From NCBI GenBank assembly GCA_951406725.2, contig OX597839.1, forward strand, positions 11,594,001 to 11,658,000: a DNA stretch of 64,000 bases, read 5' to 3'. Of this stretch, positions 11,626 through 11,812 are shown one piece after another. The first letter of the stretch is position 1, and every line of letters starts with the position of its first letter. The notes under the pieces are model-generated. The model had not been told where the DNA came from. It made no database searches and was given only the letters and a program-made list of their open reading frames with translations. This DNA is from Octopus vulgaris. Its lineage: Eukaryota. A program made the translations under genes and the position numbers.

Positions 11626-11812
11626 AGGGAAAGTTTACGAAAATAAACAAAAGACGAAGGCAGGTAGAGTACAAACAAACAGATGTATTAGTATAACGTT
11701 CAGGAATAGGAAAAGTCTTTTACGTTTCGAGCCTACGCTCTTCGACAGAAAGATACACAGAAAAAAACAAGGAGAGAAAAAAATGCGTGTAGGAGCTAAC
11801 GATCTATCATGG
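11626..11812 (-). mobile_element. Short Penelope-like (pseudo-LTR-type) element carrying a hammerhead motif; other copies at 33813-33943 (-) and 57501-57686 (+)
   Basis: Three alignable copies share the 3' end ...CGTAAACT[CT]TCCCT. Two of them abut (TA)n directly, and each contains the hammerhead-like motif. Confidence 0.6.
11716..11753 (-). ncRNA. Minimal type I hammerhead-like motif (core CUGUCGA)
   Basis: Minus strand reads TCTTT-CTGTCGA-A-GAGC-gtag-GCTC-GAA-ACGT-A-AAAGA: 5-bp stem I, 4-bp stem II, palindromic ACGT stem III. Confidence 0.6.

What the first reader, a model, noticed from the sequence alone, without database searches (positions are those of the whole stretch)
11716..11753. 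Hammerhead core variant CUGU(C/A)GA shared by all three copies of one family
Core position 6, normally invariant A, is U in all three copies (CTGTCGA, CTGTAGA, CTGTAGA), while the normally variable position 7 does vary. Stem II GAGC/GCTC is intact in all three, and loop II differs (gtag, gtag, aaag). Variation mostly at tolerant positions fits a maintained fold. The shared A6U change suggests it was present in the active master element rather than arising by decay.
Basis: partly seen in the sequence, partly recalled or inferred. Interest (0 to 1): 0.7.

Follow-up and report, generated by a model that had tools for sequence, protein, structure and literature searches.

The report
Penelope-type hammerhead with family-wide U6
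Three short leftovers of what is likely a Penelope-type jumping gene carry a tiny hammerhead RNA motif in which a normally fixed core letter (A6) is U, as in nearly all related sequence in four public sequencing runs; the rest of the motif is preserved, so it is likely a slowed rather than dead self-cutter, but cutting is untested.

Summary
Observation confirmed. Three dispersed copies (88-93% alike) carry a minimal type I hammerhead with U6. In four public runs with four organism labels (8,000-19,500 contigs laid each), A6 stays under 1% while neighbouring N7 shows all four bases and N17 varies A/U. U6 is therefore inherited, not decay, and the fold around it looks conserved (0 of 19 core and stem II sites variable against 9 of 52 flank sites, p about 0.05). 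Whether U6 itself is selected cannot be told. All three copies span the predicted cut and end 94 nt past it at TA-rich DNA, like the studied Penelope element PAc, so they were likely copied from uncut RNA. No coding gene could be linked and no genome was held. Best reading: a slowed, dimer- or protein-dependent ribozyme; folding predicts a weak extra helix that U6 allows. I found natural A6C in print but not A6U; one key paper was unavailable. This scan noted the same variant before, in this genome and others. New variant of a known kind.

The parts
11627..11812 (-). Copy A of the dispersed element (likely a solo pseudo-LTR/tail of a Penelope-like element)
   Evidence: Homology to copy C from 11812; 3' end at 11627; run depth collapses beyond about 11812-11818
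11749..11753 (-). Stem I, 5' strand (5 bp with 11716-11720)
11741..11748 (-). Core box 1: C3 (11748), U4, G5, U6 (11745), N7 (11744, C here), G8, A9 and the extra A9a (11741)
   Evidence: sequence; family variation
11729..11740 (-). Stem II (4 bp, G10.1-C11.1) with 4-nt loop
   Evidence: pair probability 0.93 in the 66-nt fragment but 0.05 in the whole 189-nt copy
11721..11728 (-). Core box 2 GAAA, palindrome ACGU (15.1-16.1, 11725-11722) and A17 (11721); predicted cut between 11721 and 11720
   Evidence: layout as in PMC4209133
11716..11720 (-). Stem I, 3' strand
11754..11785 (-). U-rich (pyrimidine) tract before the motif
   Evidence: sequence; the published min-HHR consensus has a U-rich 5' flank
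33814..33944 (-). Copy B, starts 9 nt before C3, lies between TA repeats; U6 at 33932
57501..57685 (+). Copy C, TA-rich flanks; U6 at 57567; G12A at 57584, likely dead

Best explanation
This is a minimal type I hammerhead motif, likely from the terminal repeat of a Penelope-like retrotransposon, in which U6 is shared by the whole sampled family and which likely still cuts, slowly and only as a dimer or with help from the element's protein. Shown: the motif, family-wide U6, free N7, and the common 3' end 94 nt past the predicted cut. Inferred steps: (1) U6 arose once in an ancestral element, before N7, N17 and the flanks diversified. (2) Selection kept acting on the hammerhead fold afterwards. 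(3) Two motifs pair through the ACGU palindrome to build stem III. (4) U6 lowers the rate, by loss of A6 contacts and by a predicted weak helix U4-G5-U6 with A15.1-C15.2-G16.2 that hides the palindrome. (5) This is tolerated because insertion uses uncut RNA: reverse transcription starts about 94 nt downstream of the cut at a nick in TA-rich DNA and runs through the intact motif, which gives these short copies.
For: A6 under 1% in 4 of 4 runs; N7 is C 21-43%, U 26-55%, A 16-25%, G 7-8%; N17 is U in 2%, 22%, 22% and 20%, and G17 is under 1% in X3 and X7. Sites with a variant at 5% or more: 0 of 19 core and stem II sites against 9 of 52 flank sites in X3 and in X7 (p=0.049 each); pooled 0 of 19 against 13 of 52 (p=0.011), or p=0.058 if the G12 CpG site is counted. 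Loose ends at 11709-11712 and 11751-11752, and higher depth over the core, point to relatives that keep the core with different flanks. Layout matches the published min-HHR consensus except at position 6. Cut-to-end distance is 94 nt in 3 of 3 copies; in PAc it is 85-92 nt by my subtraction from the paper's figures, insertion prefers AT-rich DNA, uses uncut RNA, and the hammerhead cleaves only with protein. A natural A6C hammerhead is slow but active. The extra helix has probability 0.38 and 0.76 in copies A and B with U6, against 0.01 and 0.17 with A6.
Against: No cleavage data. No copy begins at the cut site, and no such end is among the loose ends shown (747 more were hidden). Invariance of U6 alone is uninformative: 75% of flank sites also lack a 5% variant. 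No RT or GIY-YIG reading frame was linked (0 Pfam hits in the 150 longest of 273 non-repetitive frames). The extra helix is only 0.2 kcal/mol below the open form, and the whole copy A folds without stem II. A6C cost one hammerhead over 10,000-fold in 0.3 mM Mg2+, so U6 may be near dead in cells.
Confidence: 0.5

Rival explanations
1. The U6 motif no longer cuts at a useful rate; the sequence is kept as an RNA structure or a binding site for the element's protein, or as part of the promoter or leader.
For: All 3 copies span the cut. In PAc, hammerhead mutants do not affect insertion in vitro and no RNA reads end at the cut. Naiad elements spread without canonical hammerheads. Position 6 changes lower activity.
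Against: Variation falls on N7 and N17, and N17 avoids G in X3 and X7, which is a cleavage rule (rule recalled; data). It rests on two sites only (chance of both varying about 0.06).
Confidence: 0.27
2. U6 was favoured: it works as an off-latch that hides the dimer palindrome, keeping the template uncut until protein binding or a second copy opens it.
For: The helix is predicted with U6 and mostly lost with A, C or G in copies A, B and locus L016 (0.38-0.82 against 0.00-0.17). The family is very abundant. Uncut RNA is the insertion substrate in PAc.
Against: Energy gap 0.2 kcal/mol; a minimal hammerhead is already inactive as a monomer; no test here separates selection for U6 from tolerance.
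Confidence: 0.13
3. The core is conserved for an overlapping signal unrelated to hammerhead folding, such as a splice acceptor after the pyrimidine tract or a DNA promoter element.
For: In copies B and C the tract is followed by U6-A7-G8, which reads like an acceptor; an intron ends at the motif in Drosophila virilis Penelope.
Against: A7 is only 16-25% of the family; both stems, GAAA and the palindrome are kept too.
Confidence: 0.08
4. U6 arose separately by decay in each copy of an A6 family.
For: In outside loci L011 and L024 a U6 motif sits beside an A6 copy of the same repeat, so sporadic U6 does occur in other families.
Against: A6 under 1% in 4 of 4 runs; three independent hits near 1e-4 or less.
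Confidence: 0.01

Closest known systems
Minimal type I hammerheads (min-HHR) in pLTRs of metazoan Penelope-like elements (Cervera and De la Pena 2014, PMC4209133; main text parts 1-2 of 4 and supplement file 2 part 2 of 3 read)
   Same: Type I layout, no stem III beyond a palindrome at 15.1-16.1, extra base at 9a, G10.1-C11.1, 4-5 bp stem I, U-rich 5' flank, mostly dispersed single copies.
   Different: U6. All 44 alignment rows I saw have A6 and the consensus is CUGANGAH; the core variant reported there is U3-A8. Stem II is shorter here (4 bp). No coding region linked here.
PAc, Poseidon element of the green anole (PMC11167929; main text section read whole, supplements not read)
   Same: Copies end 85-92 nt past the cut (94 here), AT-rich targets, uncut RNA as template.
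   Different: PAc has an ORF that overlaps the motif and shown, protein-assisted cleavage; neither is shown here.
Bcep176 phage hammerhead with natural C6 (PMC3088659, passages and section 8; PMC7151607, parts 1-2 of 4)
   Same: Natural change at position 6.
   Different: C rather than U, one phage sequence rather than a high-copy animal family; its slow, Mn2+-favoured cleavage was measured.
Non-LTR retrozymes of animals (bioRxiv 10.64898/2026.07.22.740005, part 1 of 5 read)
   Same: Non-coding, type I hammerhead, related to PLE pLTRs.
   Different: Retrozymes are tandem arrays; these copies are solitary and lie 22-24 kb apart.

Membership tests
Hammerhead ribozyme (canonical core) | C3 U4 G5 A6 N7 G8 A9 | tested here: not met
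   U6 in 3 of 3 copies and A6 under 1% in 4 of 4 runs; other positions match
Hammerhead ribozyme (canonical core) | G12 A13 A14, A15.1-U16.1, H17 | tested here: met
   Copies A and B; copy C has G12A; family G12A 2-5% at a CpG site
Hammerhead ribozyme (canonical core) | Site-specific self-cleavage after N17 | not testable with these tools
   Only contigs were served, which cannot show RNA ends
Hammerhead ribozyme (Rfam families) | Match to an Rfam hammerhead model | tested here: not met
   No hit
PLE minimal hammerhead (min-HHR) | Type I, stems I and II, palindrome in place of stem III, extra base at 9a, G10.1-C11.1 | tested here: met
Penelope-like element | ORF with RT and GIY-YIG endonuclease next to the repeat | tested here: inconclusive
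   0 Pfam hits in 150 of 273 window frames; no genome held; no family copy in three collections
Penelope-like element | Fixed 3' end downstream of an intact hammerhead, at AT-rich or TA-repeat targets | tested here: met
   94 nt in 3 of 3 copies
Penelope-like element | Tandem pLTR-ORF-pLTR or inverted 5' copy | tested here: inconclusive
   None in the window; one head-to-tail joint in single contigs of 2 of 4 runs
Non-LTR retrozyme | Tandem repeats, each with a hammerhead | tested here: not met
   Copies are solitary
Naiad PLE clade | Sequence match to published Naiad consensus ends | tested here: inconclusive
   None of the short element motifs searched lay in a matching context in the supplement of PMC8557442; one 11-mer hit sat in unrelated sequence; line breaks can hide matches

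The most novel reading that the evidence does not exclude
U6 is a selected switch. It turns the invariant A6 into a latch that pairs the catalytic core with the dimer palindrome, so the RNA stays uncut as a template for insertion and cleaves only when the element's protein or a second copy opens it. This would be a natural, self-inhibited, protein-gated hammerhead, and would help explain the success of this very abundant family.
Probability: 0.13. Interest if true: 0.75.

Novelty: new variant of a known kind. Interest (0 to 1): 0.45.

Why it matters
What hammerheads do for Penelope-like elements is open: they are almost always present, cleave poorly, and were dispensable for insertion in the one reconstituted system. 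A very abundant family that fixed a change at a position thought invariant, while apparently keeping the rest of the motif, is a natural test. If U6 dimers cleave, the core rule CUGANGA is too strict and descriptor searches miss whole families. If they do not, the motif is kept for something other than cutting.

Tried and rejected
No whole genome is held, so no direct copy count. A second lay on the 57-nt core gave no variant table even at N7, so its blank says nothing; it shows only that two runs guessed to be RNA hold the stretch; no holder is on record as RNA. Metagenome scan for the U6 core: 27 loci, none from this family; 4 of 27 (L011, L016, L017, L024) complete a minimal hammerhead against 0.03 expected. 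I first read these as other U6 families and dropped that: L011 and L024 each hold an A6 copy of the same repeat and L017 resembles them, so they may be decayed copies; L016 is undecided. Viral contigs: 0 hits in two scans. Bacterial and archaeal genomes: 4 hits with stem I of 0-2 bp, taken as chance. Pfam: nothing in 150 window frames or 11 frames of four outside loci. Rfam: no hammerhead. Supplements of PMC8557442 and PMC13282606 held no matching element. A dimer fold by nearest-neighbour energies did not give a double hammerhead; such models do not score the core. Deletion joints do not fall on the cut site. A sequence look-up among earlier findings returned nothing.

Full report
Observation. 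The stretch 11716-11753 reads on the minus strand as a minimal type I hammerhead: 5-bp stem I, CUGUCGA, an extra A, 4-bp stem II with loop GUAG, GAAA, the palindrome ACGU and A17. Two more copies have C3 at 33935 (-) and 57564 (+), both CUGUAGA. The copies are 88-93% identical over about 131 positions, and a profile built from them finds no fourth copy. A relaxed descriptor finds the same three, against a mean of 0.4 in 20 shuffles, one of which reached 3. It missed that copy C has A at G12 (57584), the general base according to a review passage, so that copy is likely dead.

Setting. The window is animal-like DNA rich in microsatellites and dispersed repeats. It looks like octopus DNA to me, from recall; no call shows this. 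The 150 longest of 273 non-repetitive reading frames have no Pfam match. All three copies end at the same base, 94 nt past the predicted cut, followed by TA-rich DNA. Copies A and C begin about 64-66 nt before C3 and copy B 9 nt before it. All three therefore span the cut.

Is U6 the family state? No genome was held, so I laid contigs of four public runs, one for each of four coded organism labels and four studies (4 of 24 listed), on copy A at 80% likeness: 19,476, 12,202, 17,753 and 7,976 contigs. The table shows no row for position 6 (11745), but 21 rows were hidden. I compared the rows shown with the tool's own count of places per kind of change. No A>T place is hidden in any run, so A6 is under 1% in 4 of 4. 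In X3 and X7 no change from A is hidden at all, so every non-U letter at position 6 is under 1%; in X2 and X6 a C6 or G6 row could be hidden. The neighbour N7 shows all four bases (C 21-43%, U 26-55%, A 16-25%, G 7-8%), which shows that mismatches at this spot are laid and counted.

Is the fold still constrained? Inside the core the large non-CpG variants are at N7 and N17 (U in 2, 22, 22 and 20%; G under 1% in X3 and X7). CpG sites show 1-8%, apart from the first loop base (5-21%), and G1.4 in stem I shows 5-11%. Sites with a variant at 5% or more number 0 of 19 in core and stem II against 9 of 52 in the 3' flank, in X3 and in X7 (p=0.049 each). Pooled, it is 0 of 19 against 13 of 52 (p=0.011), or p=0.058 with G12 counted; three flank sites private to copy A were left out, and hidden rows weaken the pooled count. 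Loose ends at both edges of the motif and higher depth over it suggest relatives that keep the core with different flanks. This is moderate evidence for selection on the hammerhead after U6 arose. It does not show selection for U6, because 75% of flank sites are equally quiet.

Elsewhere. A metagenome scan for the U6 core gave 27 loci. Four complete a minimal hammerhead with features not in the pattern, against 0.03 expected. But L011 and L024 each carry an A6 copy of the same repeat (124 of 135 and 118 of 162 identical), and L017 resembles them, so these do not show fixed U6 families. Viral contigs gave none and prokaryote genomes four chance-like hits.

Mechanism. Shown: motif, family-wide U6, common 3' end. 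From papers: minimal hammerheads of Penelope-like elements are inactive as monomers and weakly active as dimers (PMC4209133). In PAc the hammerhead cleaves only with the element's protein, hammerhead mutants still insert, uncut RNA is the main template, targets are AT-rich, and reverse transcription starts 111-118 nt into an ORF whose cut lies at nt 26 (PMC11167929), that is 85-92 nt past the cut. Inferred: these copies are reverse transcripts of the uncut front of such an RNA. A6 makes one or two hydrogen bonds; the natural A6C variant cleaves below 0.1 per minute (PMC3088659) and favours Mn2+ (PMC7151607). U6 likely slows cleavage likewise. Folding adds a prediction: U6 lets U4-G5-U6 pair with A15.1-C15.2-G16.2, with probability 0.38 and 0.76 in copies A and B against 0.01 and 0.17 with A6, though only 0.2 kcal/mol below the open form; the whole copy A does not favour stem II. 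I put a slowed, assisted ribozyme at 0.5, a non-cutting structural relic at 0.27, a selected latch at 0.13, an overlapping signal at 0.08 and independent decay at 0.01.

Comparison and membership. It works like a PLE minimal hammerhead and meets that architecture, but fails the canonical core at A6; cleavage and the link to an RT/GIY-YIG gene are untested or inconclusive. It is not a tandem retrozyme. All 44 rows that I saw of the 56-row alignment in PMC4209133 have A6.

Novelty. Searches for hammerhead with A6U (one twister paper, listing only), with CUGUNGA (none), and six related searches showed no natural A6U. Passages of PMC6765202, PMC8557442, PMC6155905, PMC11014351 and PMC13282606 did not mention one. 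Lunse et al. on PLE hammerhead variants is not held and I saw nothing of it; the first supplement file of PMC4209133 was not searched; either could hold U6 examples. This scan has noted a U6 Penelope hammerhead before, once in this genome and at least five times in others; those notes are unchecked and are not independent support. Verdict: real, inherited, a new variant of a known kind; interest 0.45.

Noticed in passing
window 57584 (+): Copy C has A at G12, a CpG-type change; likely a dead copy.
   Followed up: yes
window 11709-11712 and 11751-11752: Hundreds of contigs in each DNA run share the hammerhead core but have other flanks: at least one sister family.
   Followed up: partly
window 11812: Loose ends past the 5' end agree on their first letters in two runs (agreement 0.40-0.44), so some copies may extend further; a head-to-tail joint 11812 to 11645 occurs in single contigs of X3 and X6.
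   Followed up: partly
window 11640-11700 and 11754-11785 (-): Pyrimidine tracts on both sides of the motif and a branch-point-like heptamer about 25 nt past the cut in all three copies; possibly an intron signal (motif recalled).
   Followed up: no
window 32235-32307 (+): tRNA with anticodon UUU (lysine), Rfam 64.5 bits.
   Followed up: no
L011:2211-2239 (-) and L011:2382-2415 (+): Inverted pair of a hammerhead-bearing repeat, one copy U6 with A9a, the other A6 with U9a, 124 of 135 identical; the three similar U6 hits all have A9a, but my pattern required it.
   Followed up: partly
L016:2468-2494 (-): Isolated U6 minimal hammerhead with a 6-bp stem I in an AT-rich contig; family state unknown.
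   Followed up: partly
window 2156-61616, e.g. 10729-11074 and 61492-61837: Several other dispersed repeat families (D15-D20), SINE-like by recall, plus short tandem arrays of period 35, 152 and 184.
   Followed up: no
window 4018-4989: About 970 nt of period-9 repeat with open frames of 300-500 codons; low complexity, left out of the Pfam scan.
   Followed up: no
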